A stretch of DNA of 64,000 nucleotides from Candidatus Thiopontia autotrophica (GCA_014384675.1 JACNFK010000014.1:1213-65212); one strand, 5' to 3'; counted from the first letter of the stretch, positions 24,383-50,681 are shown. Numbers and translations: made by a program. The notes: generated by a model from the sequence alone, not told the origin.

Positions 24383-24425
24383 AATTCAGCTCTCTCTAAA
24401 TAATCTATATGCGGAAGGACAATTG

Positions 24426-30923: not shown

Positions 30924-30936
30924 TATGGAAAAGCAA

Positions 30937-31151: not shown

Positions 31152-31158
31152 TGGCAGT

Positions 31159-33318: not shown

Positions 33319-33419
33319 GTTATATAACCTCTTTTTACGGCCTCTTGTGGCCCCTCTCTCTTGTTTATGAATACTTGCAAAAGCACACTAATAATGCGGT
33401 TTTGTAAAGACCCTAAACG

Positions 33420-33445
33420 ATCATCCCCCAATAGAGGGGGATGAT
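33420..33445 (-). terminator. GC-rich hairpin downstream of the cupredoxin-like gene (candidate terminator)
   Basis: ATCATCCCCC-AATAGA-GGGGGATGAT, a 10 bp stem with a weak U-tract. Confidence 0.35.
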
Positions 33446-33580
33446 GTTACAGATTTGTTGGTTGTTCCTAGATCACCATGTACCAAATGATAATGGTGCA
33501 GACAACAACCATGTTGATAGCTCCACCTGTAAGTACCATACGGTCAAACAGGGTGAGTTTCTCTGGAAGCAGACGTCTCA

Positions 33581-34348
33581 TTACTTCATCTTGATATCAA
33601 CAGTTACAGTATCGCCACCCTTAACAGTAGCCTTGCCTTTTCCTGGCTTGAGGAAGCCATTGAAGGCCCTGACCTTGTATTTGCCAGGAGGTACGTTGTC
33701 GATAGTGTACTTTCCGTTGCCATCTACCACAGCGTAGTATGGGCTCTTGGCCACAAAGACGAAACCGTGCATAAAGTCATGAGCATCACACTCAACCTTC
33801 ATGGCATAACCTTTTTTCAGCTTTACAGTCTTGGTCACCTTGCTGCCCTGGTCAGGCTGGCTCACATTTGCAACGGTCTTTTTAGGCCCTTTGACGGTAC
33901 CGGTCATCAGCTCATAGGTGTGAAGATTGTGAAGAACAGGATCAGAGTTGATAGCAGTCATCTTGCCGCCATTTTGCATGATAGAGAGGAATGGGGTGAA
34001 TTCGCATCCTTTCTGATCTACATTGATCTCAGCAGGAGTGTCTCCCCACGCCTTGCCTGATTTTACCTTAGTCAGATAGACAACTGCATTGAGCAGTGCC
34101 TTGCCGTTGGTCTGAACGTAATCGATGATGCGCTGGTCATTGCCACATACGGCATTGTCCTTCTTTATGTCATAAACCTTGTGGGCAGACTTTGGTGCAG
34201 CCTTCTTCAGGGTTACGGTTCCGGTGATGGTGCCGCCATTAGCGACATCAACCACCTTGTAGCCAGCCTCTGAGCTGAGTGGGGTGAATGCAGCAGCAGT
34301 GATTGCTACAGCAGAGAGTGTCTTAAGTAGACGTTTTGATGTTTTCAT
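33581..34348 (-). CDS. Secreted cupredoxin-like (amicyanin/pseudoazurin-type) protein with a C-terminal carboxypeptidase-regulatory-like beta-sandwich
   Basis: Signal peptide. A VLHNLH ... VECDAHDFMHGF arrangement (H ... C-x2-H-x2-M) matches the amicyanin type-1 copper ligand spacing. The C-terminus (GKYTIDNVPPGKYKV) is CarboxypepD_reg-like. Confidence 0.5.
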   Translation of the reverse strand: MKTSKRLLKTLSAVAITAAAFTPLSSEAGYKVVDVANGGTITGTVTLKKAAPKSAHKVYDIKKDNAVCGNDQRIIDYVQTNGKALLNAVVYLTKVKSGKAWGDTPAEINVDQKGCEFTPFLSIMQNGGKMTAINSDPVLHNLHTYELMTGTVKGPKKTVANVSQPDQGSKVTKTVKLKKGYAMKVECDAHDFMHGFVFVAKSPYYAVVDGNGKYTIDNVPPGKYKVRAFNGFLKPGKGKATVKGGDTVTVDIKMK

Positions 34349-34404
34349 GTCAATTTGACTCCTGGGTTAAATAAAACAAAATAGTTAATGAAAAAATAGT
34401 TACT

Positions 34405-36846: not shown

Positions 36847-36895
36847 GGTATTAGGCTCTCTATATAAAAATTATCTTTAGAATTCAGTAACAGTA

Positions 36896-36911
36896 TGCAT
36901 AAGGTGTGCCA
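36896..36911 (-). promoter_or_regulatory. Sigma-54 (-24/-12) promoter for the HEAT-cupredoxin transcript
   Basis: The minus strand reads TGGCACACCTTATGCA. GG and GC are spaced exactly as in TGGCAC-N5-TTGC, about 50 nt upstream of the HEAT start. Confidence 0.6.
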
Positions 36912-37140: not shown

Positions 37141-37156
37141 TGGCATATAAAATGCA
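37141..37156 (+). promoter_or_regulatory. Sigma-54 (-24/-12) promoter for the CydA-like/cytochrome operon
   Basis: TGGCATATAAAATGCA with GG-N10-GC spacing. It is 62-158 bp downstream of the three palindromes. Confidence 0.6.
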
Positions 37157-37195
37157 AGTAGTTGGCGGATATTGGCATTAAACCAAGGGTTGGCT

Positions 37196-37348
37196 ATGAC
37201 AGAAGAGAACGAGAACAGAGAAAGTGTTAAGCAGGATAGTGAAGAGGTGACATGGGGGCCGAAGCTGTTTCTGGCGGTAACAGGCGGTGTTCTTCTCTTC
37301 TTCTGGTGGCTTCTGATCTATTCAGGTGGTGTGGTATTACACCACTGA
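37196..37348 (+). CDS. 50 aa small membrane protein (below the ORF-track size cutoff)
   Basis: MTEENENRESVKQDSEEVTWGPKLFLAVTGGVLLFFWWLLIYSGGVVLHH. It has an RBS-like AAGGG about 8 nt upstream and is the first ORF after the sigma-54 promoter. Confidence 0.3.
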   Translation: MTEENENRESVKQDSEEVTWGPKLFLAVTGGVLLFFWWLLIYSGGVVLHH

Positions 37349-37393
37349 CTTTTCAAACACCAAAGCGCTCATAATCATTTAGCAGGTAAACTG

Positions 37394-37519
37394 ATGAAAA
37401 CTGGAATTGCATTTGTAGTTGCCCTTTTTGTGGCATTTTTTCTGTTCTATGGAATGGATCATCTCATCATGGGAATGCAGGGGCTTCCTCTGAATCTCGA
37501 CATGTCGCCGGCGCAGTAG
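37394..37519 (+). CDS. 41 aa single-TM peptide, possibly a CydX-like accessory subunit
   Basis: MKTGIAFVVALFVAFFLFYGMDHLIMGMQGLPLNLDMSPAQ. It ends 16 nt before the CydA-like start. Confidence 0.3.
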   Translation: MKTGIAFVVALFVAFFLFYGMDHLIMGMQGLPLNLDMSPAQ

Positions 37520-37535
37520 AAGGAATAAAAATCCA

Positions 37536-39356
37536 ATGAAACAAAGACTATTTTTCTGGGTATTGCTCTTCTCTGTCATTGTGGCAGGGATGTTTGGGGG
37601 TGATTTCGGTTCACCTTCACTACTCAATGAGGCTCTCGCCTCTGATGCTGTAGTAGAGGAGGGGGCGCAACTGGCTTCAGCTCCTCAGCCAAATCGTGGC
37701 GATTATCCAAATATAGGGGTCAGTAGTCGGGCGGTTGTGTGGGTTATCGCACAGATGCACCTCTTCTTTGGGGCGCTGGTGTTGGCGGTACCGATGTTTG
37801 TGGTCGGTATTGAGTTTATGGGTTTCAAAACCGGTGATGAGCGCTATGATGATATGGCCCATGAGTTCATGAAGATCAGTATCACCGCCTACTCCATTAC
37901 TGCGCTGTTTGGTGGAACCCTGGCGATTGCCCTCTTCCTGCTCTATCCAACCTTTATGAGCTACATGATGGAGGTGTTCGGGGCACAGATGTTGGTCTAT
38001 GCGGTGCTCTTTTTCCTTGAGAGCTTCTTCCTCTATATCTACTACTATGGCTGGAATGTACTCCGTTATGGTAACAAAAAGTGGATCCACCTCTCTTTGG
38101 GGATGATGCTCAATGGGGTAGGGCTGACTCTGATGTTTATGGCTAACTCCTGGTCCACCTTCATGATGGCCCCATCCGGGGTGAGTGATGTGGGTGCAGT
38201 GGTGGGGAATATCTGGGAGGTTATGAAGGGGCCGCTGTGGAACCCAATCAATCTGCATCGATTCATCGCCAATGTCGCCTTTGGTGGAGCCGTAGTAGGG
38301 GCCTATGCCGGGTTTAAGTTTCTTGCAGCAAAAACGCAGGAGCAGAAAGCACACTATGACTGGATGGGATATACCTCTAACTTTATTGCGATCCTCGCCT
38401 TTTTACCCCTCCCCTTTGCGGGCTATTGGTTGATGGCAGAGGTCTATGCATACTCTCAGCAGATGGGAATTACCGCCATGGGTGGTATTCTTGCGTGGCT
38501 CTTTATTGTACAGGCGGTATTGATTGGAACCATCTTGTTGGCAGCCAACTACTATCTATGGTCAGGGATGTCTCGTACCGAGGGCTCCAAACGCTATCAG
38601 GGGTTTATTAAGTGGATTGCTGGAACGCTTGTGGTCTGCTTTCTGATCTGGATGACCCCTCACACCTTGCTGCTAACGGCAAGCGAGATCTCCGCCTTGG
38701 GTGGAAGTCACCACCATATTCTTGGGCCACTGGGGATCATGCCGGCGAAAAATATTGCGGTCAATCTGATGTTGATTATGACCTTTCTCTCCTTCCAGCT
38801 CTACCGTCGATCCGATAAAGTGGCAACCGTCTCTTGGGCGCCAGTTGGAAATGCACTGATGACAGCCATCTATATTGTGGCGATTGTGAATATTATCTTT
38901 GCAGGTGTCTATTATGGATATTTCACTAATACGGTATACAAGGTCGGATCCAGTGTGACCCAGGTGGTATCTACCTTGATGGTGATTATCATTGGGGTAA
39001 TGCTGGATGGCATCATGTATAAAAATGCCAAAGTGAAATTTCCTGCAGTTTGGGGAAAAGTCTCCAACCGTTCACAGTATGCACTCTTCGCCCTACCGGT
39101 TGCCTTTACCTGGTTGATGGGATTGATGGGATATGTACGCTCTTCGGTCAAGACCCATTGGCATGTCTATACGGTGATGAAAGATAACTCACCAGATAAC
39201 TATATTCCTGCAATTGGTTATGCGGGAAATATGGTTACTCTGGTTACGGTACTGTTTATTGTCTTCCTGTTATTCGTGTTCTGGATTGCCAACCTTAGTG
39301 GGCAGAAACAGATTGCACCCCAAGCTGCCAATGGTGAAAAAGGAGCAGAGGGATGA
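37536..39356 (+). CDS. Cytochrome bd-type quinol oxidase subunit I-like membrane protein (an orphan CydA homolog with no CydB partner)
   Basis: 606 aa and polytopic. MHLFFGALVLAVPMF corresponds to the CydA helix-1 His region. LESFFLYIYYYGWNVL matches the CydA FLES...FFFGWDRL block. The C-terminus is extended. Confidence 0.7.
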   Translation: MKQRLFFWVLLFSVIVAGMFGGDFGSPSLLNEALASDAVVEEGAQLASAPQPNRGDYPNIGVSSRAVVWVIAQMHLFFGALVLAVPMFVVGIEFMGFKTGDERYDDMAHEFMKISITAYSITALFGGTLAIALFLLYPTFMSYMMEVFGAQMLVYAVLFFLESFFLYIYYYGWNVLRYGNKKWIHLSLGMMLNGVGLTLMFMANSWSTFMMAPSGVSDVGAVVGNIWEVMKGPLWNPINLHRFIANVAFGGAVVGAYAGFKFLAAKTQEQKAHYDWMGYTSNFIAILAFLPLPFAGYWLMAEVYAYSQQMGITAMGGILAWLFIVQAVLIGTILLAANYYLWSGMSRTEGSKRYQGFIKWIAGTLVVCFLIWMTPHTLLLTASEISALGGSHHHILGPLGIMPAKNIAVNLMLIMTFLSFQLYRRSDKVATVSWAPVGNALMTAIYIVAIVNIIFAGVYYGYFTNTVYKVGSSVTQVVSTLMVIIIGVMLDGIMYKNAKVKFPAVWGKVSNRSQYALFALPVAFTWLMGLMGYVRSSVKTHWHVYTVMKDNSPDNYIPAIGYAGNMVTLVTVLFIVFLLFVFWIANLSGQKQIAPQAANGEKGAEG

Positions 39357-40177
39357 GTCAGAGTAACCAGGTACTTCCAAAGATATTGGCATTTAGTGTG
39401 GGGCTGGTGTTGCTCTTTACCTTTGTTGCCAACATTCTTCCACAGGTTGAGGGCGAGGCGCCGGTGGACAAGAAGGTGGATCTCGGTGCGCTCACCATGG
39501 ATGGCTTTGTCTCGATGGGAGAAGAGTTATTCAAGGGGAAGGGGACCTGTACCCTCTGTCATAATAATCTTGGGCGCGCGCCTGATATTCTGGCATTGAA
39601 TATGGTGGAGACTGCCGCTGAGCGGTTAAAAGATGAGCGCTATCAAGGAAAATCTACTGATTCGGCCAGTTACTTTATGGAGTCAATGGTAGACCCCTCG
39701 ATCTATGTGGTGGCGAGCTTTGGAAAGAAGGGCAGTAATGATACGGAATCACCTATGCCCGCTGTGAATAAGGCCCCCATTAACCTTTCAGCGATAGAGA
39801 TGGATGCGGTCATCGCCTTTATGCAGGCCAAGGATGGTGGTGAGGTTACGGTGGAGCTGCCTACAGAGGCTCCAGTGGTCGATGAATCTGCTGTCACAGG
39901 CGGCGGAGCACCTGCCCCGGCAGCAACTGGTGAAGAGGCGGTAGGAAAATATGGTTGTGCGGCCTGTCATGTTATTAACGGTTCAGGAGGCGATCTTGGT
40001 CCGGACCTGACTGGGCTAGGCAGCAGACAAAATGTTCTGGTTATTCAACAGAGTATTGTTGATCCAAATGCAGTTATTGCAGATGGATTTGCCCAAGGAC
40101 TTATGCCGGCTGATTTTGGTGACAAGATGACAGTCAAGGAGTTGTCGATGATTGTTGAATTGCTGCAGGGGCAGTAG
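39353..40177 (+). CDS. Membrane-anchored diheme cytochrome c
   Basis: Two CxxCH motifs (CTLCH and CAACH) and an N-terminal TM anchor. Its start overlaps the CydA-like stop (ATGA). Confidence 0.8.
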   Translation: MSQSNQVLPKILAFSVGLVLLFTFVANILPQVEGEAPVDKKVDLGALTMDGFVSMGEELFKGKGTCTLCHNNLGRAPDILALNMVETAAERLKDERYQGKSTDSASYFMESMVDPSIYVVASFGKKGSNDTESPMPAVNKAPINLSAIEMDAVIAFMQAKDGGEVTVELPTEAPVVDESAVTGGGAPAPAATGEEAVGKYGCAACHVINGSGGDLGPDLTGLGSRQNVLVIQQSIVDPNAVIADGFAQGLMPADFGDKMTVKELSMIVELLQGQ

Positions 40178-40242
40178 TCGAGATTTCAATGGCAGCGGAT
40201 GCTGCGATTTTTTTAACTTTTTATCAATGTAAGGAATTAATA

Positions 40243-40560
40243 ATGAACAAGGTAATGATTAGTGTTGTGGCAACTGTAGTAATGGCTTCAAGCCAGTCTG
40301 TAATGGCCGATGCCGCCGGTGATTTTGCCGCCGGCTGTTTTGCCTGTCACAGCCCTGCAACTGCAGCTGCAGTAGGCGCTCCTGGCATGGGTGATAAGGC
40401 TGCCTGGGCGCCACGCATCGCCAAGGGTATGGATGCACTCTATGCAACCGCAATCAATGGCTCTCCAACAAACCCACTGATGATGCCGCGTGGTGGAACC
40501 GCTTTGAGTGATGATGCGCTAAAGGCTGTGGTGGACTACATGGTTGAGCAGTCAAAATAA
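40243..40560 (+). CDS. Monoheme cytochrome c (c5/c553-like)
   Basis: Signal peptide, then a CFACH heme motif in a roughly 85-residue mature domain. The start is taken at MNKVMIS, which has a better RBS than the ORF-track start at 40189. Confidence 0.75.
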   Translation: MNKVMISVVATVVMASSQSVMADAAGDFAAGCFACHSPATAAAVGAPGMGDKAAWAPRIAKGMDALYATAINGSPTNPLMMPRGGTALSDDALKAVVDYMVEQSK

Positions 40561-40615
40561 GTTGGCTGATATTTTTTTACCAAAATAGCTATTAGAGATT
40601 TGGAGTAGACCCCCC

Positions 40616-43051
40616 ATGAAACGATTTGGAATTTCGGCATTCTGGCAGGCAATTATTGTAACTATTGCGGCCTACCTGATATTTACCAATGCCTTTCCTC
40701 CATTGATGCCAAAGTCACTGGTGGTTCAGTTTATGCTGATTACCGTGATAGGGGTGCTACTCTACTTCTCTTTTGATGATGAGCGCTGGGCAGAATTTTT
40801 AAGTCCCATTCAGAATGTTCTGCGAGGCGGTGGTTTCCGTTTGACGGTTACCCGTTGGCTCTTCCTGCTTGCAATCCCTGCAGTGGTTGGTTACACAACC
40901 TATGGGTTGGTCAAACCATCACTGGACTCTCCTGTGGAGCTGCGCCAGGTTCATCCTGCCCCTCCATCAACCGTCAAGATCTGGGGCAAGAATTTTGATC
41001 TAAACAGTCTGGAGAGCCCGATCCGTACCGAGGTGCTGACCCAGTGGAAGAGTGGTGAGCGTGAGGGAGCCATGGAGATCTATAACGAGTCAGTCAATGC
41101 GGGCCGTGATGTCTACTATGGCAACTGCTTCTTCTGTCACGGTGATCTGCTGGATGGCAAGGGCCACTATGCGGAAGGGTTTAACCCTCAACCCATCAAT
41201 TTTCAGGATCCAACTGTAATTCCACAACAGCAGGAGGCCTTCCTCTTCTGGCGTGCGGCAACAGGTGGTCCAGGTCTGCCCAAGGAGGGAACTCCATGGA
41301 ACTCTGCAATGCCGGTCTGGCACGAAATGTTGAGTGAGGATGATATCTGGAATGTGCTGATGTTTATCTTCGACTACAACGAGCAGGTTCCAAGAATCTG
41401 GAATCTGGAAGATTCTGAGGCAGCTACAGGAATCAGAGACTCTATTCTCGAGGCCCGCAAAGGGATGGGGGGAGATGAACTCTACCAGTTCCGCTGTATG
41501 GTCTGTCACGGTGAGGAGGGCATGGGTGATGGTGTTGCTGCAGAGTTGATGTACCCCAAGCCACGTGATTTCTCCTTGTCGATGTTTAAATACAAAAGCT
41601 CTCCAGGAACAATCCTGCCAAGGGATGAAGATCTTTTCCATACCATCAAGTTTGGACTGGATGGTACGGGAATGCCAGGTTGGGGAACCCTGCTTAGCGA
41701 TGAGCAGATCAGTAGTCTGATACCGGTAATCAAGTCGTTTGATATTGCCGCAGCATGGCCGCCAGAAGAGGCGGATGATGAAGATTATGATGAGGATAGC
41801 GGCCGTTATCTGAAGGATGATTTCCAGGTAATTACCGAGCGTGAACCGGAAGAGGGACAGATTGCATACACCCCGGAGTCAATAGAGAAGGGCAAGGCTG
41901 CCTTCGAAAAGTCATGTACAGAGTGTCACGGTGATACTGGACGAGGCAATATCATGTCCGGTAAACAGCTAGCGGATGACTGGGGTAATCGTATCTGGCC
42001 ACGAGATCTGACCAAGCCATGGACTTGGCGCGCCACCAACTATACTGCTGGCAAGACTCCGGAAGAGAGCCGAGATCAGACTGTGCGCAATATCTATAGT
42101 CGACTATCTATCGGCATACCAGGAACTCCAATGCCAGCTCACCGAGCTACAGAAGAGGGGAATAAAGATCCGGTAAGTCTGGAGGATCGTTGGCATATTG
42201 CCAATTATGTATACAGCCTGCGCGAAACCACTACCCAGCTGGGTGATAATAATGTGATTCGTGCAGCCAAGGTAGCTGGGGCTCTCCCTGATAGTATGGA
42301 TGATGCCGGTTGGGAAGGGGCTGAGCCTACAACTCTGATGATGGTTCCTAATATCATCAAGGAAGAGCGTCTCTTCACCCCGCTTAATGATGCAATTACT
42401 GTGCGTGCCCTCTACAACAAAAAGGAGATCGCCCTGCTGCTGGAGTTTGATGACCGTACTGATAGTCGTCCCGGTGAAGAGACCTCGGAGGGAATTCAGG
42501 ATGAGGATCTGGAGCTGTTCTCGGATGCGGTTGCGGTTCAGTTCCCCAAGGAGGATGGATTTGAGACCTCACCGGTAGTGGTTAAGCCGTTATACCGCCA
42601 CGGTGATGGCAGACACCACACAACCATGTGGTACTGGAATGCTGGTAGTGTAGAGCCGGCTGTTGCCGATTCCGGGATGTTGCTGGATGCCTCTGGCCCA
42701 GACAAGAAGATCGAGCCACGAATTGGTGATACCTCTCTCTTGACCGAAGGTAGATGGAAAGATGGTCGCTGGCAGGTACTGATGAAGCGTTCACGCAATG
42801 GTGGAGGCAGGGATGGCAAAACTGGTGATCTCAACTTTGTTGAGGGCAGATTCCTCCCCATCTCCTTTGCCAACTGGGATGGCAGTAATGGCGAGAAGGG
42901 TGCCAGACATACCCTCACCACATGGACCTGGTTGGTGCTGCCACCAGAGATTGATGAGCAGCGACTCTATGGGGTTCCTGGGGGTGTTGCCTTTGCCATC
43001 TTCCTTGCCGGCCTTATTTTGGTAAGAACCCAGCGTAGAGGTGCCAAGTAG
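40616..43051 (+). CDS. Membrane-bound triheme cytochrome c with a large C-terminal domain
   Basis: Three N-terminal TM helices, three class-I-like heme sites (CFFCHGD, CMVCHGE, CTECHGD) and a C-terminal TM helix. 811 aa. Confidence 0.75.
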   Translation: MKRFGISAFWQAIIVTIAAYLIFTNAFPPLMPKSLVVQFMLITVIGVLLYFSFDDERWAEFLSPIQNVLRGGGFRLTVTRWLFLLAIPAVVGYTTYGLVKPSLDSPVELRQVHPAPPSTVKIWGKNFDLNSLESPIRTEVLTQWKSGEREGAMEIYNESVNAGRDVYYGNCFFCHGDLLDGKGHYAEGFNPQPINFQDPTVIPQQQEAFLFWRAATGGPGLPKEGTPWNSAMPVWHEMLSEDDIWNVLMFIFDYNEQVPRIWNLEDSEAATGIRDSILEARKGMGGDELYQFRCMVCHGEEGMGDGVAAELMYPKPRDFSLSMFKYKSSPGTILPRDEDLFHTIKFGLDGTGMPGWGTLLSDEQISSLIPVIKSFDIAAAWPPEEADDEDYDEDSGRYLKDDFQVITEREPEEGQIAYTPESIEKGKAAFEKSCTECHGDTGRGNIMSGKQLADDWGNRIWPRDLTKPWTWRATNYTAGKTPEESRDQTVRNIYSRLSIGIPGTPMPAHRATEEGNKDPVSLEDRWHIANYVYSLRETTTQLGDNNVIRAAKVAGALPDSMDDAGWEGAEPTTLMMVPNIIKEERLFTPLNDAITVRALYNKKEIALLLEFDDRTDSRPGEETSEGIQDEDLELFSDAVAVQFPKEDGFETSPVVVKPLYRHGDGRHHTTMWYWNAGSVEPAVADSGMLLDASGPDKKIEPRIGDTSLLTEGRWKDGRWQVLMKRSRNGGGRDGKTGDLNFVEGRFLPISFANWDGSNGEKGARHTLTTWTWLVLPPEIDEQRLYGVPGGVAFAIFLAGLILVRTQRRGAK

Positions 43052-43120
43052 GCTCTCTATTCTCGGACAGCCTCCAAGTAGTCTTCTCTGCAGTGATAGT
43101 TAATTGATTGCCCTTGATTT

Positions 43121-43154
43121 ACCCTCCCGGCACTGTCGGCGAGGGTATTTTTTT
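43121..43154 (+). terminator. Rho-independent terminator after the triheme cytochrome gene
   Basis: ACCCTC...GAGGGT stem followed by ATTTTTTT. Confidence 0.5.
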
Positions 43155-43183
43155 GAATGTAACGTTCTGTTTGAGTGGTCAGT

Positions 43184-43328: not shown

Positions 43329-43344
43329 TGGCACAGAAAATGCT
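43329..43344 (+). promoter_or_regulatory. Sigma-54 (-24/-12) promoter for the CCP-CCP-Rieske-Mo operon
   Basis: TGGCACAGAAAATGCT, exact TGGCAC with a correctly spaced GC, about 120 nt upstream of the first CCP start. Confidence 0.6.
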
Positions 43345-43466: not shown

Positions 43467-44603
43467 ATGGGAGAACGACTGAAAACAGTGCAAGGTGCAA
43501 TCGCAGCAACGATTGCCCTGAGCCTGAGTGTCGGGGTATCCACAGCGGTTGCAGCAGGGTCTCATGGACCAGTTGCCAAGATCGATGTGAATGCTGCGAA
43601 GGCTGAGCTCGGTAAACGACTCTTCTTTGACCGCCGCCTATCGGGTGATGCGGGTATAGCATGTGCGGATTGTCACAGTCCAGATCACGGTTTTGGTAGT
43701 AAGGATGCGCTTTCACCTGGATACCCAGGTAACGGCCATTTCCGCAACGCACCATCACTGGTGAATACGGCACATAAGAAGACATGGATGCATGATGGCC
43801 GCCTCGGTACCAACCTCAATGATGTTACTCGTGAGATGCTCACAGAGGACTACATCATGAATATGGACATGCGGATGATGCAGGAACGTGTCAAACAGGA
43901 TTCAGAATACCTGGCACTCTACAAGGCTGCAGGTATGAATGAGCCATCAAATGGCAGTATTCGTAAAATGCTCCCTATCTTCATGAAGACTCTGACCACA
44001 CGCAATGCGCCAGTGGACAATGGGACTATGAGTGATGCAGCAAAACGTGGCGGAGCAATCTTTGACGGCAAGGGTGGATGTAACCAGTGTCATACTGGTG
44101 CCCTCTACTCAGATGGTGGTCGTCACAACACAGGTGTTCCTGAGAATCTGGATGTCTTCCTTGATCCAATGAACCATCAGGCATACCTAGCCTACGGAAT
44201 TGGTATGGGGGTTGAGAATATTTTCAATACCAAACGTGATATTGGTGCGGCAGTACAGACTCATGAGGCTGACGGTTCTGACCGCGGCATGTTCATGACC
44301 CCGCAGTTACGTGGTCTCAAGTACAGTGCTCCATATATGCATAACGGCATGATGGGCACGCTTGATGATGTGGTTGAGTTCTACAATCAGGGTGGTGGTC
44401 AGGATAGCAACAAGAGCTCTCTGCTTAAGCCACTACGTTTGACTGACGGTGAGAAAGCTGATCTGGTGGCCTATCTTGAGGCACTATCAGGCGACGCACT
44501 GACTGGTCCAGAGTTTGTATGGTCCAAGCCATTCCCTGCAGAGTATGAGGTTATCGAGAACTGGAGACAGGTCGATAACCGTACACGTGCACCAATCAAA
44601 TAA
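43467..44603 (+). CDS. Di-heme cytochrome c peroxidase (CCP/MauG family); IdrP1-like
   Basis: Signal peptide. Two CxxCH motifs (CADCHSP and CNQCHTG) and a conserved CCP C-terminal block (MHNGMMGTLDDVVEFYNQGGG). Confidence 0.85.
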   Translation: MGERLKTVQGAIAATIALSLSVGVSTAVAAGSHGPVAKIDVNAAKAELGKRLFFDRRLSGDAGIACADCHSPDHGFGSKDALSPGYPGNGHFRNAPSLVNTAHKKTWMHDGRLGTNLNDVTREMLTEDYIMNMDMRMMQERVKQDSEYLALYKAAGMNEPSNGSIRKMLPIFMKTLTTRNAPVDNGTMSDAAKRGGAIFDGKGGCNQCHTGALYSDGGRHNTGVPENLDVFLDPMNHQAYLAYGIGMGVENIFNTKRDIGAAVQTHEADGSDRGMFMTPQLRGLKYSAPYMHNGMMGTLDDVVEFYNQGGGQDSNKSSLLKPLRLTDGEKADLVAYLEALSGDALTGPEFVWSKPFPAEYEVIENWRQVDNRTRAPIK

Positions 44604-44622
44604 GCGATCAGGAGAGTTAATT

Positions 44623-45882
44623 ATGTTTGAAAAGAAAAACAGAAACCCAATCGCTGTTGCTGTCGTAATGACTACAACATTGATGGTTGGATGTACCTCA
44701 CAGGCGGGTTCTGTTGCCACCGAGACTGCAGCTGCTCCAACAGTTGTTGCCTCCATGGATAGTGGAACACCTATAGTAGCACCTGGCCTTAAGCCGGCTG
44801 GCGCCTCAATCAACCCATCTCTGGCGGCACTTGGTCCAGTACCGGTTCCTCCAGATAACCCCATCACTCCTGCAAAGGTAGAGCTGGGCAAGATGTTGTT
44901 TTTTGAGCCAGCAATCGGTGGTGATACCTCAACTCCTTGCTCTGCATGTCATGAGCCGGATCAGGGTTGGGCATGGGCCGAGGATATCTCTCGTGGATAC
45001 CCAGGTACTGTTCACTGGCGTAACAGCCAGACTGCGGTTAACTCAGCCTACTACCCACGTCTCTTCTGGGCAGGTTCTGTATCCTCACTAGAGGCACAGG
45101 CCAAGTCTGCGGCAGGCGGTGCAGTAGCAGGTAATGCGGAGTTCGATATTGTTGAGGCCCGTCTTGCTCTGATGCCAGAGTACAGAAAACGTTTCAATGA
45201 GGTCTTCGGCGACGAAATGCCTCTATACAGAAATGCATTCCGTGCGATTGCTGCTTTTGAGCGTGCTGAGCTGGTTCAGCGTGATGCACCAATTGATAAC
45301 TACTTCAATGGTGATGACAGCGCACTGAGCGAAGAGCAGAAGCGCGGTATGGCTCTGTTTAACGGCAAGGCAAACTGTATTGAGTGTCATAATGGCCCAA
45401 TGGCTACGGATTTTGACTTCTACAATATTGGTGTGCCTACTCTAGAGCGTTGGAAGACCGATGGTCTGGCACAGATAACTTATCGTTATGAGATGTATGC
45501 CAAGGGTTCAAACGAGGAGATGTATCGCAACTCCAAGGGCGATCCAGGCTTCTACTTCCGTGGTAAGAATAGCTGGGACAAGGGTAAATTCCGGGTTCCA
45601 TCACTGCGCTACACTATGTATACCGCACCGTATATGCATAACGGCACACTCATGACACTGGAAGATGTTGTTGACTTCTATAATGAGGGCGGTGGCCATA
45701 ATGACTACTCCAAAAACAAGAGTGATCTTATCAAGCCTCTTGGTCTGAGTGATGAAGAGAAAGAAGATCTGGTTGCGTTCCTGGAGGCATTCTCTGGTGA
45801 TGAGATTGAGATTGAGCGTCCCAAGATGCCTGGTTATGCACCTCTGTTTACCAAGGCAGAGCTGATGATGGAGAAGAAATAA
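44623..45882 (+). CDS. Di-heme cytochrome c peroxidase, lipoprotein; IdrP2-like
   Basis: LMVGC lipobox. CSACHEP and CIECHNG heme motifs, and the CCP block MHNGTLMTLEDVVDFYNEGGG. The start is taken at MFEKKN, which has an AGGAG RBS. Confidence 0.85.
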   Translation: MFEKKNRNPIAVAVVMTTTLMVGCTSQAGSVATETAAAPTVVASMDSGTPIVAPGLKPAGASINPSLAALGPVPVPPDNPITPAKVELGKMLFFEPAIGGDTSTPCSACHEPDQGWAWAEDISRGYPGTVHWRNSQTAVNSAYYPRLFWAGSVSSLEAQAKSAAGGAVAGNAEFDIVEARLALMPEYRKRFNEVFGDEMPLYRNAFRAIAAFERAELVQRDAPIDNYFNGDDSALSEEQKRGMALFNGKANCIECHNGPMATDFDFYNIGVPTLERWKTDGLAQITYRYEMYAKGSNEEMYRNSKGDPGFYFRGKNSWDKGKFRVPSLRYTMYTAPYMHNGTLMTLEDVVDFYNEGGGHNDYSKNKSDLIKPLGLSDEEKEDLVAFLEAFSGDEIEIERPKMPGYAPLFTKAELMMEKK

Positions 45883-46478
45883 TGAGCACTAAAACAGAAG
45901 TGACAAAGAAAAGAGAGGACCAGACTGCTGGTGAGCACGGCAAGTGCATGCTCAACCGCCGTCAGTTCCTGATGTACAGTGGTGCTACTGCAGCCACTGC
46001 GAGCACTGTCTCTCTTACCCTGTTCCCAGGAACAGCCAAGGCTGTACAGACCAAGGCACGAGTGGTTGGTTATCCTCGCAAACTGGTTGGTAAGCTGAGT
46101 GAGATGAAGGATAACGTTCCAGTAATGATCAACTATCCAGATAATGGCAAGAACTCCATGGCTACCATGGTGAAGACTGGCGTTAAATGTGGTGGTGGAG
46201 TCGGTGCTGGACGTGACCTGGTTGCATTCAGTGCGCTCTGTACACATCAGGGTGGCCCACTGCTGGGACGTTACACTGCGGTAGATGAGCATAGAGTTAT
46301 GGGTTCATGCCCACTGCATCTATCTACCTACGATGTGACTCGCCATGGAATCATTGTCTCTGGTCAGGCTTATGAGAGTCTGCCACAGGTCCTCCTGGAG
46401 CTGGATGGAGATGATATCTACGCAGTTGGCATGATGGGGCTGATTTACGGCCGTAACCAGAACCTGATGGAATCTTAA
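45882..46478 (+). CDS. TAT-exported Rieske [2Fe-2S] small subunit (AioB/IdrB-like)
   Basis: RRQFL twin-arginine motif. The Rieske ligands are CTHQGGPL ... CPLHLSTY. The start overlaps the CCP2 stop. Confidence 0.8.
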   Translation: MSTKTEVTKKREDQTAGEHGKCMLNRRQFLMYSGATAATASTVSLTLFPGTAKAVQTKARVVGYPRKLVGKLSEMKDNVPVMINYPDNGKNSMATMVKTGVKCGGGVGAGRDLVAFSALCTHQGGPLLGRYTAVDEHRVMGSCPLHLSTYDVTRHGIIVSGQAYESLPQVLLELDGDDIYAVGMMGLIYGRNQNLMES

Positions 46479-46490
46479 GGAGAAAAAGAT

Positions 46491-49184
46491 ATGTCTACAA
46501 ATTATTATCTGCCAGAAGACTCCGCACCATTGCCACCCAAGCATGCGGAAGTCCTGACTACAGCCTGTGACTACTGTATTGTTGCCTGTGGCTATAAAGT
46601 CTATCGCTGGCCTGTCGGCTCTGGTGATGGTGGTCCAACTGCTGATGCAAATGCATTCGGTCAGGACTTCCCAACCAGCGCCCTTCAAAACTGGGTAGCC
46701 CCTGCACAGCATAATGTTGTTATGCACGGTGGTCGTCCACATAACGTGATCGTTGTCCCTGATAAGGACACTCAAGCGGTTAACAAAACCGGTGACTCCT
46801 CCATGCGTGGTGGTCTGCTTGCAGCCAAGTGCTACAATCCAAAGACCCCTACCCGTGATCGTCTCACCAATCCTATGGTACGTATCAACGGTACCCTTCA
46901 GCCAGTTAGTTGGGACTTCGCTCTCGATATTGCTGCTGAGGTTGGTAAGTATGTCATCAAGAACCATGGCGCTAACGCCTACTCGGTGAAGACATTCTCC
47001 TACCAGTATCTTGAGAACACCTATGCGATCAAGAAGTATGCACGTCGTAATGTAAATACTGCATCCTTCACCTTCCACGATACCCCATCTGACGTAACCT
47101 CTACACCAGGTTTCCGTGATGCCGGTTTCGATAACTTTGGCCCATCATATGATGACTGGGGAGATGCAGATGTACTGCAGATCCATGGTACAGATCCGTA
47201 TGAGACCAAGACCATTATCTATACGCAGTTCATCAAACCTGCGATTGAGCGTGGCATGAAGACCATCTGGCTGAATCCTCGTGAGACTGCCGGTATCGCC
47301 TATGCAAACAGCAAGGGTCCTGATCAGACTATCCACTTCCAGCTGACACTTGGTACCGATACGGTGCTTATGGGTGCAATTGCCCGTGTCATCTGTGAGA
47401 ACGGATGGGAGGACAAGGATTGGGTAAACAACTGGGTCAACAGCAAGTGGGAGACCTCTTCCGGCTTCGGTCAGGGAACCCGTAATACCCCATGGCAGTG
47501 GCGTACAACCTGGGGCATGTTCCAGCTCAAGGGTGGCTATAAAGGCTACAGCAAGTGGGTTCAGTCCAAGGATGAGTACAAGGTAGAGAATGCCGCGAAG
47601 ATCTGTGATGTTCCTGCTGCAGATATCATCAAGGCTGCTGAGTGGCTCACCAACAAGGGCGCTGGAACCAAGGCCTCCTTCGGTATCGAGAAGGGCTACT
47701 ACTGGTCCAACAATACCGGTAACACCAATGCTGTATCTTCACTGGCAACCATCTGTGGTGCCGGCGGACGTCCAGGACAGGTTGTTGGTCGCTTCGGTGG
47801 TCACCAGCGTGGTGGTGCAGGTGGCGGTAGCTATCCTCGTAACAAGTCTCCAGAGAAGCGTCCAGGTCGTCGTCGTCGTTCACTCGACACCGATCGTTAC
47901 CTGATCTCCGGTCACACCCGCTTTGCACACGTAATCGGCACTACCTGGATTCAGGCAATGACCGGTTCTCAGAGCCTCTACCACAAGTTCCATGAGCTGG
48001 TACTTGCCAACCCTAATCAGGTTAAATCCTATGATAAGGGTGATATCATCGAGACCCTGAAGAAGCGTGCTGATTCTGGTGGTATGGTTGTGATCAATCA
48101 GGATATCTATCTACGTGATCCAATCGGTGCCCGTTTCGCGGATGTGGTCTTCCCGGCTGCAACCTGGGGTGAGTCTGACTTCACCAGATCAAACGGTGAG
48201 CGTCGTCTTCGTATCTACAACAAGTTCTACGATGCCCCAGGACAGGCAATGCCAGACTGGTGGATTATTGGTGGAATGGCGAGCCGTATGGGCTACGAAG
48301 GCTTCGACTGGAAGAGCGCCAATGAGGTTGCGGAGGAGTCTACACGCTCCAGCCGTGGTAACCGTAAGGCATACCATATGATCAAGGTCGCGGCACATCG
48401 TGAGGGTAAAACCTTCCATGAGAAGATGCGTGAGTTTGGTACTACTGGTATCCAGGGACCAACAGTCTATAACTACAACACCGGTGAACTGCATGGAACC
48501 AAGCGTCTCCATGACACTACACTGACTGAAGCAGATATGGAGCGTATGGGTGTCACCCAGGGTGCCAACATGACCAACAAGAAGATGACGCACTTCAACT
48601 CTCAGACCGGTAAGGTCAATATCCAGAAGCATCCATGGAAACTGTTTGCAGACTTCCATGATTGGCTCTCTCCCAAGGGGGACGAGCTCTGGTTCTCGAA
48701 TGGTCGTATCAACGAGATCTGGCAGTCTGGATTTGATGATGTTGAGCGTCGTCCTTACGTGACACAGCGTTGGCCTGAGAACTGGGTAGAGATCCATCCT
48801 GATGATGCCAAGGCTCGTGGAATCGAGTCTGGTGATCAGGTCATGCTCTACTCTGATCGTGTGGTCGAGTCCAAGGACACCATCCTCGGTGTTCATGGCA
48901 ATGACTTCCAGTTCTCTGAGATGATGAAGAATGGTCATCTCAAGCTAACCAAGGCCGCAGTCACAGCCGTTGCAGTAATCGCTCCCCACCTGAAGAAGGG
49001 AATGATGTACGGCAATATGCTGGATATGCGCCAGCCCAACAATGCGTTGCAGAACCGCGTGGTCGATCAGATCAGTGGTAACTACAACTACAAGATGGGT
49101 GTGGCCAGGGTCAAGAAGATTGGTGAGTCGAAGTACAAGAAGGAGTTCCGCTCCATGTCCTTCGCACCACGTAATATCATCTAG
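46491..49184 (+). CDS. Molybdopterin (bis-MGD) oxidoreductase large subunit of the AioA/IdrA clade; an iodate reductase-type catalytic subunit is the favoured reading
   Basis: N-terminal LPPKHAEVLTTACDYCIVACGYKVYRWP contains the Cys-X2-Cys-X3-Cys 3Fe-4S motif diagnostic of arsenite oxidase-like enzymes. Further blocks (NVIVVPDKD, IWLNPRET, RFGGHQRGG) align with AioA. 897 aa. Confidence 0.85.
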   Translation: MSTNYYLPEDSAPLPPKHAEVLTTACDYCIVACGYKVYRWPVGSGDGGPTADANAFGQDFPTSALQNWVAPAQHNVVMHGGRPHNVIVVPDKDTQAVNKTGDSSMRGGLLAAKCYNPKTPTRDRLTNPMVRINGTLQPVSWDFALDIAAEVGKYVIKNHGANAYSVKTFSYQYLENTYAIKKYARRNVNTASFTFHDTPSDVTSTPGFRDAGFDNFGPSYDDWGDADVLQIHGTDPYETKTIIYTQFIKPAIERGMKTIWLNPRETAGIAYANSKGPDQTIHFQLTLGTDTVLMGAIARVICENGWEDKDWVNNWVNSKWETSSGFGQGTRNTPWQWRTTWGMFQLKGGYKGYSKWVQSKDEYKVENAAKICDVPAADIIKAAEWLTNKGAGTKASFGIEKGYYWSNNTGNTNAVSSLATICGAGGRPGQVVGRFGGHQRGGAGGGSYPRNKSPEKRPGRRRRSLDTDRYLISGHTRFAHVIGTTWIQAMTGSQSLYHKFHELVLANPNQVKSYDKGDIIETLKKRADSGGMVVINQDIYLRDPIGARFADVVFPAATWGESDFTRSNGERRLRIYNKFYDAPGQAMPDWWIIGGMASRMGYEGFDWKSANEVAEESTRSSRGNRKAYHMIKVAAHREGKTFHEKMREFGTTGIQGPTVYNYNTGELHGTKRLHDTTLTEADMERMGVTQGANMTNKKMTHFNSQTGKVNIQKHPWKLFADFHDWLSPKGDELWFSNGRINEIWQSGFDDVERRPYVTQRWPENWVEIHPDDAKARGIESGDQVMLYSDRVVESKDTILGVHGNDFQFSEMMKNGHLKLTKAAVTAVAVIAPHLKKGMMYGNMLDMRQPNNALQNRVVDQISGNYNYKMGVARVKKIGESKYKKEFRSMSFAPRNII

Positions 49185-49203
49185 ATCTGACCTTCGTGTT
49201 GTG

Positions 49204-49241
49204 AAAAACCCCGGTAGCTTAAATGCTACCGGGGTTTTTTT
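49204..49241. terminator. Strong bidirectional rho-independent terminator
   Basis: AAAAACCCCGGTAGC-TTAAAT-GCTACCGGGGTTTTTTT, a 15 bp perfect stem with an A-tract upstream and a T-tract downstream. Confidence 0.85.
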
Positions 49242-49478
49242 ATGGTGTTTGAATCCTTGTGAAAATTCTGAAAAAACTTTTTCAGAGGCTCCCTAACTAA
49301 CCATAGGTAGAAAAATTGATCCAGGTCAATTCAGTAGAATCAGTAATCAACTATAGTCTTAAGTGTCTGTTGTGATCTCCGATTATTATTCCTACATTAG
49401 TATGAAGAGGGAGCAGGCACCGCACCGGTTCACTTCTCCAAGCGAACCGGTGCATCTGTGTGAATGGTTGATGTAGTG

Positions 49479-50608: not shown

Positions 50609-50681
50609 CCAACCTTTTTTATCAGGAAATTTCCCTCGCTCCTCTACTGATTCCCCGGGGGATCCGATATACTTTCGCCCC

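What the first reader, a model, noticed from the sequence alone, without database searches (positions are those of the whole stretch)
43467..49184. CCP-CCP-Rieske-Mo operon with the iodate reductase (IdrP1-IdrP2-IdrB-IdrA) gene signature rather than arsenite oxidase
The large subunit carries the Cys-X2-Cys-X3-Cys 3Fe-4S motif (CDYCIVACGY) and AioA-like blocks. Its partner is a TAT-Rieske subunit (RRQFL; CTH...CPLH). The same operon holds two di-heme cytochrome c peroxidases, and that combination is the published hallmark of dissimilatory iodate reductase islands, where the peroxidases are proposed to remove H2O2 generated during IO3- reduction. No aioXSR or ars genes are nearby. The operon is under its own sigma-54 promoter and embedded in a larger respiratory island, which is an unreported context.
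Basis: partly seen in the sequence, partly recalled or inferred. Interest (0 to 1): 0.8.

Follow-up and report, generated by a model that had tools for sequence, protein, structure and literature searches.

The report
Iodate-reductase-type operon idrP1P2BA
This is a four-gene operon for a periplasmic molybdenum enzyme of the already described iodate-reductase (Idr) family, which databases mislabel as arsenite oxidase; it is one more member, from an uncultured marine gammaproteobacterium, in a branch of the family for which I found no direct test of iodate activity.

Summary
The 897-aa subunit groups with experimentally confirmed iodate reductases (Pseudomonas sp. SCT, Azonexus hydrophilus NCP973) at 100% bootstrap. 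It lies outside the arsenite oxidases (28-30% identity). The gene order CCP-CCP-Rieske-Mo matches the confirmed Azonexus locus and about 70 related genomes, and each gene is the reciprocal best match of its Azonexus counterpart.

So "Idr, not Aio" is supported, but this is a known kind. Idr clusters were predicted in 145 genomes in 2021, including Vibrio, Moritella and Sedimenticola, whose IdrA is 70-74% identical to this one.

Two caveats:
- This protein belongs to a separate major branch, only 47-48% identical to confirmed enzymes, with a different active-site loop. I found no tested member of it.
- The "unreported context" is only partly new. The two-component system is published.

Two context points were not in the papers I could search:
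- The sigma-54-type promoter is conserved across the family (54 of 86 loci; none in 148 control regions).
- A cytochrome-bd-like/cytochrome c module sits directly upstream in about a third of loci.

Verdict: a new member of a known kind, of moderate interest.

The parts
43329..43344 (+). sigma-54-type -24/-12 promoter-like site TGGCACAGAAAATGCT, 123 nt upstream of idrP1
   Evidence: A TGG-N9-TGCW site lies 44-196 nt upstream of P1 in 47 of 71 genome loci and 54 of 86 loci overall. Control regions upstream of idrA, Usp_PCP and RR54 gave 0 of 96, 0 of 21 and 0 of 31. The same kind of site sits upstream of idrP1 in the confirmed Azonexus NCP973 locus.
43467..44603 (+). idrP1: di-haem cytochrome c peroxidase-family protein, 378 aa, Sec-type signal peptide, MauG/MbnH-like
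   Evidence: Pfam CCP_MauG E 5.6e-31. Two CxxCH motifs. Reciprocal best hit of the first Azonexus CCP at 44%. Best PDB match is 6e1c, 'Di-heme enzyme'.
44623..45882 (+). idrP2: di-haem cytochrome c peroxidase, 419 aa, lipobox LMVGC followed by an Ala/Pro-rich linker
   Evidence: Pfam CCP_MauG E 2.4e-37. Reciprocal best hit of the second Azonexus CCP at 55%, and 36% identical to P1. Best PDB matches are canonical bacterial CCPs 3o5c and 1nml. A lipobox is present in 33 of 78 related loci.
45882..46478 (+). idrB: Tat-exported Rieske [2Fe-2S] small subunit, 198 aa
   Evidence: RRQFL and CTH...CPLH are read directly from the sequence. Pfam Rieske and NCBIfam arsenite_ox_S at 115 bits. 51% identical to Azonexus IdrB against 38% to NT-26 AioB.
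46491..49184 (+). idrA: Mo-bisPGD catalytic subunit with an N-terminal 3Fe-4S motif, 897 aa, no signal peptide
   Evidence: Pfam Rieske_3 + Molybdopterin + Molydop_binding. Falls in the IdrA clade at 100% bootstrap. 47-48% identical to SCT and Azonexus IdrA, 28-30% to AioA. Active-site loop HDTPSDVTS and GGHQR. IdrA-type insertion present.
49203..49247 (+). intrinsic terminator after idrA
   Evidence: 16-bp stem followed by a T run. Minimum free energy -28.9 kcal/mol, z -6.7.
43116..43155 (+). terminator-like hairpin and U run between the upstream cytochrome operon and the idr promoter
   Evidence: Minimum free energy -19.1 kcal/mol, z -3.4, followed by UAUUUUUUU.
22994..27095 (-). candidate regulators: sigma-54-dependent response regulator (22994-24382) and Cache/PAS histidine kinase (24426-27095)
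   Evidence: Pfam. Orthologues (response regulator 49-59% identical, kinase 30-40%) lie directly beside idr in Vibrio, Photobacterium, Moritella, Motiliproteus, Marinomonas and Marinobacter, and upstream of the bd-like-idr unit in L118-L122 and L131. A kinase plus sigma-54 regulator also sits directly upstream of idr in Azonexus. That they regulate idr is inference.
37141..43051 (+). neighbouring cytochrome-bd-like module: sigma-54-like site 37141-37156, two small ORFs, CydA-like membrane protein 37536-39356, di-haem cytochrome c 39353-40177, mono-haem cytochrome c 40243-40560, and a tri-haem c + EB_dh haem-b protein 40616-43051
   Evidence: It sits directly upstream of idr, on the same strand, in 20-23 of about 70 genome loci and about 15 of about 40 metagenome loci found through CydA-like. 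It also occurs without idr. A functional link to Idr is inference.
27415..36911 (-). genes that travel with the bd-like module: HemY-type protoporphyrinogen oxidase 27415-28884, AhbD/NirJ2-like radical SAM + PCP_red 28881-30959, Usp + PCP_red 31159-33318, CarboxypepD_reg protein 33581-34348, HEAT/PBS-lyase-like protein 34405-36846, and a sigma-54-like site at 36896-36911
   Evidence: A sigma-54-type site lies upstream of the HEAT gene in 17 of 21 loci. These genes probably belong to the bd-like module rather than to Idr.

Best explanation
The region is a self-contained idrP1-idrP2-idrB-idrA operon of an uncultured marine Thiotrichales/Piscirickettsiaceae bacterium. It encodes a periplasmic iodate reductase of the AioAB-like branch of the Mo-bisPGD enzymes.

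Shown here:
- There are four tightly packed genes.
- They are bounded by terminator-like hairpins.
- A sigma-54-type promoter-like site precedes them, and its position is conserved across the family.

Inferred mechanism:
- A Cache/PAS histidine kinase and an NtrC-type regulator (22994-27095) switch the promoter on.
- IdrB (Tat signal, Rieske 2Fe-2S) carries the signal-less IdrA (3Fe-4S, Mo-bisPGD, no protein ligand to Mo) into the periplasm.
- Electrons from quinol reach IdrB through c-type cytochromes, possibly those of the neighbouring bd-like/cytochrome c module, otherwise bc1.
- They pass to the 3Fe-4S cluster and then to Mo, where IO3- is reduced.
- The published model is reduction to HIO, with H2O2 as a by-product, followed by disproportionation of HIO to I- and IO3-.
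- The two di-haem peroxidases remove the peroxide. P2 is probably lipid-anchored in this organism.

Membership of the published IdrA clade is close to certain. Iodate as the physiological substrate is likely but untested for this branch.
For: - Phylogeny: window-type and SCT-type sequences form one clade at 100% bootstrap, apart from AioA, whose own clade has 94-100% support.
- Neighbours: deeper relatives outside that clade (P0124, P0125, P0127) have no CCP genes nearby.
- Synteny: the P1-P2-B-A order is found in all loci with enough DNA, including confirmed Azonexus NCP973.
- Orthology: reciprocal best hits are P1 44%, P2 55%, B 51% and A 47-48%.
- Shared signatures with confirmed IdrA: TTACDYCIVACGYKVYRWP, GGHQ-R in place of the AioA GGHQ-E, and Asp after the active-site His. 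There is also a C-terminal insertion of about 30 aa.
- AioA model scores: the window scores 382 bits, like confirmed IdrA (423-426) and unlike true AioA (1468-1500).
- Published membership of close relatives: the Vibrio, Moritella and Sedimenticola thiotaurini proteins are 70-74% identical to this one. [quoted passage not shown]
- Genetics elsewhere: idrA is essential for iodate respiration in Denitromonas IR-12 (PMC8692401).
- Promoter: conserved across the family, with clean controls.
- Physiological setting: the neighbouring ubiT/ubiU/ubiV-like genes and cbb3 oxidase point to a low-oxygen respiratory lifestyle.
Against: - No activity data exist for this organism.
- I found no tested member of the branch that holds it. 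A 2022 paper states that all confirmed iodate respirers lie in one small clade of ten genomes (PMC8801600). In my tree that clade is on the other main branch, closer to the NC10 and Rokubacteria sequences than to this one.
- I could not place the later-tested Roseovarius azorensis enzyme or the two heterologously expressed OMZ clusters.
- The active-site loop differs from confirmed enzymes: HDTPSDVTS here against HDK[C/P]S..ND.
- Sedimenticola hydrogenitrophicus carries both types, which could mean different substrates.
- The locus has no c551-like cytochrome homologous to the Azonexus one and no moaA.
- The trees are neighbour-joining, not maximum likelihood.
Confidence: 0.7

Rival explanations
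1. It is an Idr-family enzyme, but this branch (Vibrio, Moritella, Sedimenticola, sulfur-oxidiser symbionts, this organism) acts on a different high-potential oxyanion or oxidant, such as bromate, chlorate, selenate or periodate. Iodate would be at most a side substrate. The peroxidases would still remove a reactive by-product.
For: - The protein is only 47-48% identical to confirmed IdrA.
- It sits on a separate, 100%-supported branch.
- The loop at the arsenite-site position differs: Thr for Lys, Ser for Asp.
- Both types coexist in Sedimenticola hydrogenitrophicus, with extra tandem copies.
- I found no tested member of this branch.
Against: - Operon architecture, promoter type and regulator family are the same as in confirmed loci.
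- His, Asp, Arg...His and the GGHQR motif are conserved in both branches.
- The C-terminal insertion is shared.
- The distribution in marine low-oxygen habitats fits iodate, the abundant oxidised halogen species in seawater (PMC8692401, PMC13455634).
- Divergent OMZ clusters outside the isolate clade reduced iodate when expressed in E. coli (PMC13455634).
Confidence: 0.2
2. It is an arsenite oxidase (AioBA), as automated annotation says ('arsenate reductase (azurin) large subunit'), and oxidises As(III) with electrons passed to cytochrome c.
For: - It passes the NCBIfam AioA and AioB cut-offs.
- The closest solved structures are AioA.
- It has the same 3Fe-4S plus Rieske architecture.
- An NtrC-type regulator and a sigma-54 promoter, as known for aioBA (own knowledge), are present.
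Against: - It lies outside the AioA clade, which has 94-100% support.
- Identity to AioA is 28-30%.
- It scores 382 bits on the AioA model against 1468-1500 for true AioA, and confirmed iodate reductases also pass that cut-off.
- The Glu of the arsenite site is Ser, and Asn-Arg is Asp-Thr.
- No aioX or ars genes were found in the ORFs scanned across the 64-kb window.
- Two CCP genes are in the operon, which AioA loci lack (PMC8692401).
Confidence: 0.03

Closest known systems
IdrABP1P2 iodate reductase of Pseudomonas sp. SCT, Denitromonas iodatirespirans IR-12 and Azonexus hydrophilus NCP973 (experimentally confirmed)
   Same: - The four genes come in the same order, P1-P2-B-A.
- Orthology is one-to-one.
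- The 3Fe-4S motif block is identical.
- IdrB has a Tat signal and IdrA has none.
- Both share GGHQR, the C-terminal insertion, and a sigma-54-type site upstream of P1.
- Both have a kinase and a sigma-54 regulator of the same families.
   Different: - IdrA identity is only 47-48%, on a separate major branch.
- The active-site loop is HDTPSDVTS rather than HDKCSATND.
- The regulators lie 16 kb away instead of adjacent.
- There is no c551-like cytochrome or moaA in the cluster.
- P2 is a probable lipoprotein.
- A bd-like/cytochrome c module sits directly upstream.
- The locus is chromosomal rather than on a plasmid or island.
Predicted idr clusters of Vibrio, Moritella, Sedimenticola thiotaurini, tubeworm and lucinid symbionts, Thiomargarita (window-type branch; the first three genera are named in PMC8692401)
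   Same: - IdrA is 68-77% identical, on the same 100%-supported branch.
- Loop motifs, operon order and promoter position are the same.
- The sulfur-oxidiser members also share the upstream bd-like module.
   Different: - The host lineage differs: the closest relatives are uncultured Piscirickettsiaceae/Thiotrichales MAGs at 93-96%.
- In vibrios and Moritella the kinase/regulator pair, with or without the HEAT gene, replaces the bd-like module upstream.
Arsenite oxidase AioBA (Pseudorhizobium banfieldiae NT-26, Alcaligenes faecalis, Thermus)
   Same: - The fold family and cofactor set match: Mo-bisPGD without a protein ligand, 3Fe-4S, and a Tat-exported Rieske partner encoded just upstream of the large subunit.
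- AioA chains are the closest solved structures.
   Different: - Identity is 28-30%, in a different clade.
- The arsenite-site Glu is replaced.
- This protein carries an extra insertion of about 30 aa.
- Two peroxidase genes are in the operon.
- There are no aioX or ars neighbours.
- The predicted direction of catalysis is opposite: reduction of a high-potential oxyanion.

Membership tests
IdrABP1P2 iodate reductase (Yamazaki 2020; Reyes-Umana 2021) | The large subunit falls in the IdrA clade, separate from AioA | tested here: met
   Neighbour-joining trees with 100 bootstraps. The clade holding the window, SCT and Azonexus sequences has 100% support; the AioA clade has 94-100%.
IdrABP1P2 iodate reductase (Yamazaki 2020; Reyes-Umana 2021) | Conserved synteny: two di-haem cytochrome c peroxidase genes immediately precede idrB-idrA | tested here: met
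   The order is the same as in the confirmed Azonexus locus. PMC8801600 states that idrAB is always preceded by idrP1P2.
IdrABP1P2 iodate reductase (Yamazaki 2020; Reyes-Umana 2021) | IdrA has an N-terminal C-X2-C-X3-C (3Fe-4S) motif and no conserved amino-acid ligand to Mo | tested here: met
   CDYCIVACGY is identical to the SCT motif. The position of AioA Ala199 is Ser or Ala in the window-type branch and Ser, Gly or Gln in the SCT-type branch, so it is not conserved.
IdrABP1P2 iodate reductase (Yamazaki 2020; Reyes-Umana 2021) | IdrB is a Rieske protein with a Tat signal; IdrA has no signal peptide; P1 and P2 are exported | tested here: met
   RRQFL, CTH...CPLH and the N-termini are read from the sequence. 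No signal-peptide predictor was available, so the export calls are by eye.
IdrABP1P2 iodate reductase (Yamazaki 2020; Reyes-Umana 2021) | Iodate-dependent, molybdenum-dependent activity, iodate-inducible expression, and loss of iodate respiration on idrA deletion | not testable with these tools
   This needs culture, heterologous expression or enzyme assays.
IdrABP1P2 iodate reductase (Yamazaki 2020; Reyes-Umana 2021) | Belongs to the sub-clade that holds the experimentally confirmed enzymes (a stricter criterion, not part of the published definition) | tested here: not met
   SCT and Azonexus sit on the other main branch, with NC10 and Rokubacteria sequences closer to them than the window-type branch is. 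Identity is 47-48% and the active-site loop differs.
IdrABP1P2 iodate reductase (Yamazaki 2020; Reyes-Umana 2021) | Accessory two-component system (reported for most members of the confirmed clade) | tested here: met
   The kinase and sigma-54 regulator lie at 22994-27095, 16 kb away. Their orthologues are adjacent to idr in 16 or more related genomes, and a pair of the same families is adjacent in Azonexus.
Arsenite oxidase AioBA | The large subunit lies inside the AioA clade and scores like AioA on the AioA model | tested here: not met
   It is outside the clade. On TIGR02693 it scores 382 bits against 1468-1500 for NT-26 and Thermus AioA. It passes the 359 cut-off, but so do confirmed IdrA at 423-426.
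Arsenite oxidase AioBA | Arsenite-site residues His195, Glu203, Arg419 and His423 (A. faecalis numbering; own knowledge of Ellis et al. 2001) | tested here: not met
   His, Arg and His are kept, but Glu203 is Ser. The flanking Asn-Arg is Asp-Thr, and GGHQ-E is GGHQ-R.
Arsenite oxidase AioBA | Genomic company of aioX/aioS/aioR or ars genes, with no peroxidase genes in the operon | tested here: not met
   No aioX or ars genes were found in the ORFs scanned across the window. Reference Aio loci do show aioXSR or ars genes and no CCP.
Cytochrome bd superfamily, non-quinol 'OR-N'-like branch (neighbouring module, considered for context only) | A CydA homologue without haem-c motifs, with about 10 or 14 helices, in an operon with alternative electron carriers (bioRxiv 10.1101/2021.01.16.426971) | tested here: inconclusive
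   The Pfam Cyt_bd_oxida_I match covers residues 64-318 only. A crude hydropathy scan gives 10-11 helices and there is no CxxCH. Cytochrome c genes are adjacent. Quinol-site and haem-ligand residues were not checked, and the authors' classifier was not available.

The most novel reading that the evidence does not exclude
In this branch of the family, Idr is not a stand-alone island. It would be the terminal module of a co-regulated respiratory supercluster of about 26 kb (22994-49247), made of these parts:
- One kinase/sigma-54 regulator pair driving three sigma-54 promoters (HEAT gene, bd-like operon, idr operon).
- A cytochrome-bd-like membrane protein with three c-type cytochrome proteins, one carrying an EB_dh haem-b domain.
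- That module's own tetrapyrrole-maturation genes.

This module would either feed electrons from quinol to IdrB independently of bc1, or consume O2 or peroxide made during catalysis. It would supply the quinol-side partner that published Idr models say is missing from the cluster. The branch might also have a substrate range different from the confirmed enzymes.
Probability: 0.25. Interest if true: 0.6.

Novelty: new member of a known kind. Interest (0 to 1): 0.35.

Why it matters
- Iodate reduction to iodide controls iodine speciation in low-oxygen seawater and the mobility of radioiodine. The idr cluster is the only dedicated genetic marker for it.
- This locus adds an uncultured Thiotrichales lineage, seen at very high coverage in its source metagenome, to the predicted iodate reducers.
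- The analysis shows that the family has at least two deep branches, and that the isolates I could place with confirmed activity sit on only one of them. Environmental idrA counts that pool both rest on an untested assumption.
- The conserved sigma-54 promoter and the recurrent bd-like/cytochrome c neighbour are concrete, testable leads for how the enzyme is switched on and where its electrons come from.
- The curated AioA model cut-off causes systematic misnaming of iodate reductases as arsenite oxidase.

Tried and rejected
- Arsenite oxidase was rejected on phylogeny, model score, site residues and neighbours.
- A recently acquired mobile island was rejected. The flanks are housekeeping genes, there is no tRNA, no GC shift and no transposase.
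- I tried to place the later-tested enzymes (Roseovarius azorensis; OMZ MAGs Fu_MAG_99 and Arabian10_MAG_27) on the tree and failed. The third homologue search, with P0123, returned deep-branching NC10, Rokubacteria and Chloroflexi relatives instead. No supplement text is held for PMC13455634. The R. azorensis qPCR primers give only about 6 residues each, too few to assign a branch.
- I asked whether the 105-aa cytochrome c upstream is the counterpart of the 105-aa cytochrome c of the Azonexus island. There is no real similarity beyond the haem motif.
- I looked for a molybdenum-cofactor riboswitch or other RNA element in the leader. Rfam gave nothing there; the only hit in the window is a cobalamin riboswitch at 56526-56718.
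- The sigma-54 consensus scan on the window alone was uninformative (49 matches against 42 expected). Only the cross-locus positional test was informative.
- The AmOx, radical SAM, Usp, CPDreg and HEAT genes first looked like Idr accessories. The metagenome scan shows they travel with the bd-like module even where idr is absent.
- Structure prediction was not run. It would only have confirmed the AioA-like fold already evident from sequence.

Full report
**1. Observation**

The four ORFs are present as described:
- A 378-aa protein (43467-44603) and a 419-aa protein, each with two CxxCH motifs. The second runs 44623-45882 from the ATG used by the gene caller; the longest ORF starts at TTG 44515.
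- A 198-aa protein (45882-46478) with MLNRRQFL and CTH...CPLH.
- An 897-aa protein (46491-49184) with CDYCIVACGY near its N-terminus and no signal peptide.

The inter-gene distances are 19, -1 and 12 nt. Pfam gives CCP_MauG twice, Rieske, and Rieske_3 + Molybdopterin + Molydop_binding.

A sigma-54-type site, TGGCACAGAAAATGCT, lies at 43329-43344. Terminator-like hairpins flank the unit at about 43116-43155 and 49203-49247. The unit therefore looks like an independent transcription unit.

**2. Origin**

The same protein is found on 73-kb contigs of ENA metagenome assemblies, one at about 1770x coverage. The closest genomes are uncultured Piscirickettsiaceae/Thiotrichales MAGs, one of them from Saanich Inlet, at 93-96% identity.

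The rest of the window is chromosomal:
- gyrA-serC-pheA-hisC-tyrA-aroA-cmk-rpsA upstream.
- ubiT/ubiU/ubiV-like genes, sbcB and ccoNOP downstream.
- No tRNA and no composition shift.

It is not a mobile island.

**3. Which family**

NCBIfam names the large subunit arsenite oxidase, but only just: 381.9 bits against a cut-off of 359.05. On the same model, true AioA from NT-26 and Thermus score 1500 and 1468 bits. The experimentally confirmed iodate reductases of Pseudomonas sp. SCT and Azonexus hydrophilus NCP973 score 423 and 426. The label is therefore an artefact of a lenient cut-off.

I obtained reference sequences in three ways:
- The plasmid collection gave Azonexus NCP973 IdrA and several AioA.
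- A cluster look-up gave SCT IdrA, UniProt A0A391NTR7.
- A search of 50%-identity representatives gave the deeper relatives.

Neighbour-joining trees with 100 bootstraps show:
- One clade at 100% support holds the window protein, its relatives, the SCT/Azonexus group and the NC10, Rokubacteria and Chloroflexi sequences.
- AioA forms a separate clade at 94-100% support.
- Intermediate lineages P0124, P0125 and P0127 fall outside the 100% clade and have a Rieske gene but no peroxidase genes nearby. This matches the 'unknown clade' of PMC8692401.

**4. Synteny and orthology**

In about 70 of 80 related genome loci there is enough upstream DNA to judge, and all show P1-P2-B-A. The confirmed Azonexus locus has the same order.

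| Comparison | Identity |
|---|---|
| Window P1 to Azonexus CCP1 (reciprocal best) | 44% |
| Window P2 to Azonexus CCP2 (reciprocal best) | 55% |
| Window P1 to window P2 | 36% |
| IdrB to Azonexus IdrB | 51% |
| IdrB to NT-26 AioB | 38% |

The literature gives 37% between IdrP1 and IdrP2 and says idrAB is always preceded by idrP1P2 (PMC8801600).

The best solved relative of P1 is 6e1c, deposited as 'Di-heme enzyme', and its top NCBIfam hits are the MauG and MbnH families. P2 resembles canonical bacterial peroxidases. In this branch P2 often carries a lipobox.

**5. Sequence signatures**

- The 3Fe-4S block TTACDYCIVACGYKVYRWP is identical to that of SCT.
- The motif after the conserved Arg...His is GGHQ-R in both Idr branches and GGHQ-E in AioA.
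- The residue after the active-site His is Asp in Idr and Asn in AioA.
- The Glu of the arsenite site is Ser here.

By the published definition (clade plus idrABP1P2 synteny, PMC8692401) the locus is a member. That paper names Vibrio, Moritella and Sedimenticola thiotaurini as holders of the island. Their IdrA is 70-74% identical to this one.

**6. The caveat**

The clade has deep structure. The window protein belongs to a branch, 100% supported, of marine Gammaproteobacteria plus a Mariprofundaceae sequence. Every isolate with confirmed iodate respiration that I could place sits on the other main branch. Identity across the two is only 47-48%.

The loop that carries the arsenite-site residues in AioA (HNRPAYNSE) reads differently in each branch:
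- HDK[C/P]S..ND in the confirmed branch.
- HDTPSDVTS in this one.

Sedimenticola hydrogenitrophicus carries both types, with extra copies of the window type.

A 2022 paper states that all confirmed iodate respirers lie in one small clade of ten genomes. Later work tested three aerobic Alphaproteobacteria (PMC11445184) and two OMZ clusters expressed in E. coli (PMC13455634). I could not obtain those sequences to place them.

Iodate as the substrate of this branch is therefore a well-founded inference, not a demonstrated fact. I put it at about 0.7, with 0.2 on a different oxyanion.

**7. Regulation**

The sigma-54 site is not significant within the window alone, but its position is conserved.

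| Region searched for TGG-N9-TGCW | Loci with a site |
|---|---|
| 44-196 nt upstream of P1, genome loci | 47 of 71 |
| Upstream of P1, genome plus metagenome loci | 54 of 86 |
| Upstream of idrA (control) | 0 of 96 |
| Upstream of Usp_PCP (control) | 0 of 21 |
| Upstream of the regulator gene (control) | 0 of 31 |
| Upstream of the HEAT gene | 17 of 21 |

The background rate is 0.064 sites per 250 nt. The confirmed Azonexus locus has such a site 55 nt before its first peroxidase gene, directly after a kinase/sigma-54-regulator pair.

The window's own Cache/PAS kinase and NtrC-type regulator (22994-27095) have orthologues immediately beside idr in vibrios, Moritella, Motiliproteus, Marinomonas and Marinobacter.

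Similar sites are also conserved about 430-550 nt upstream of the CydA-like gene in its closer relatives. The window sites are at 36896 (-) and 37141 (+).

The two-component system is already noted in the literature as an island accessory. I found no paper in the searchable library that links idr with sigma-54.

**8. Context**

Directly upstream, on the same strand, lies a module with these genes:
- A CydA-like membrane protein with 10-11 predicted helices and no haem-c motif.
- A di-haem cytochrome c.
- A mono-haem cytochrome c.
- An 811-aa protein with three CxxCH motifs and an EB_dh haem-b domain.

Divergently transcribed from it are a HemY-type protoporphyrinogen oxidase, an AhbD/NirJ2-like radical SAM enzyme fused to PCP_red repeats, a Usp-PCP_red protein, a CarboxypepD_reg protein and a HEAT/PBS-lyase-like protein.

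How often the module accompanies idr:
- From the idr side, 20-23 of about 70 loci have it immediately upstream.
- From the module side, a metagenome scan with CydA-like found idr immediately downstream in about 15 of about 40 loci with enough DNA.
- The module and its partner genes also occur without idr, sometimes duplicated.

It is thus an independent respiratory module that is recurrently, but not obligatorily, joined to idr. It resembles the non-quinol 'OR-N'-type bd relatives described in bioRxiv 10.1101/2021.01.16.426971, but I did not test that membership.

Published Idr models note that the cluster lacks a quinol oxidoreductase. Whether this module fills that role is speculation worth testing.

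**9. Verdict**

The thing is a new member of a known kind. What is worth carrying forward:
- The deep two-branch structure of the family, with isolate-based experimental support on the other branch only.
- The conserved sigma-54 promoter set.
- The recurrent bd-like neighbour.

Noticed in passing
window 27415-43051: A cytochrome-bd-like module: two small ORFs, a CydA-like protein of 10-11 helices, di-haem and mono-haem cytochromes c, and an 811-aa tri-haem c + EB_dh protein. It is divergently paired with a HemY-type protoporphyrinogen oxidase, an AhbD/NirJ2-like radical SAM-PCP_red fusion, a Usp-PCP_red protein, a CarboxypepD_reg protein and a HEAT/PBS-lyase-like protein. The whole set recurs in metagenomes with and without idr, and is sometimes tandemly duplicated (L137-L145, L151, L154, L160). 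Its function is unknown.
   Followed up: partly
window 36896-36911 (-) and 37141-37156 (+): Two more sigma-54-type sites, upstream of the HEAT gene and of the bd-like operon. They are conserved in relatives: 17 of 21 loci for the HEAT gene, and at about 430-550 nt upstream of CydA-like in its closer relatives. This suggests one regulon with idr.
   Followed up: partly
window 50108-54867: ubiT (SCP2), ubiU and a second U32 gene (ubiV-like) sit just downstream of idr, interleaved with a radical SAM gene and a UbiH-like FAD monooxygenase. These are genes for oxygen-independent ubiquinone synthesis.
   Followed up: partly
window 60137-63468: ccoN, ccoO and ccoP, encoding a cbb3-type high-affinity cytochrome oxidase, at the end of the window.
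   Followed up: no
window 56526-56718 (+): A cobalamin riboswitch (Rfam RF00174, 108.8 bits) immediately ahead of a nitroreductase-fold gene (56729-57460), possibly BluB-like, followed by a TauD-family gene.
   Followed up: no
window 13198-14316 (-): A Fic/DUF4172 gene inserted on the opposite strand inside the otherwise conserved gyrA-serC-pheA-hisC-tyrA-aroA-cmk-rpsA block.
   Followed up: no
L055 (10001-12691, and a second cluster from 19558), L062, P0384: Sedimenticola hydrogenitrophicus carries several window-type idr clusters, two of them close together on one contig, plus one cluster of the confirmed SCT type. It is a natural system for asking whether the two branches differ in substrate.
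   Followed up: no
NCBIfam TIGR02693: The curated cut-off of the AioA model (359 bits) admits confirmed iodate reductases (423-426 bits) and this protein (382 bits), while true AioA score about 1470-1500. This explains the widespread 'arsenate reductase (azurin) large subunit' label on IdrA. No Idr-specific model matched.
   Followed up: yes
window 49479-49958 (-): A 159-aa ORF (called as 140 aa) between idrA and ubiT with no family match. It is present in the identical contigs L001 and L002 but was not detected in the 96%-identical relative L003.
   Followed up: no
window 44623-44800; L003-L082: IdrP2 has a lipobox (LMVGC) followed by an Ala/Pro-rich linker in this organism and in 33 of 78 related loci. 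The confirmed Azonexus protein lacks it, so the second peroxidase is probably membrane-tethered in this branch.
   Followed up: partly
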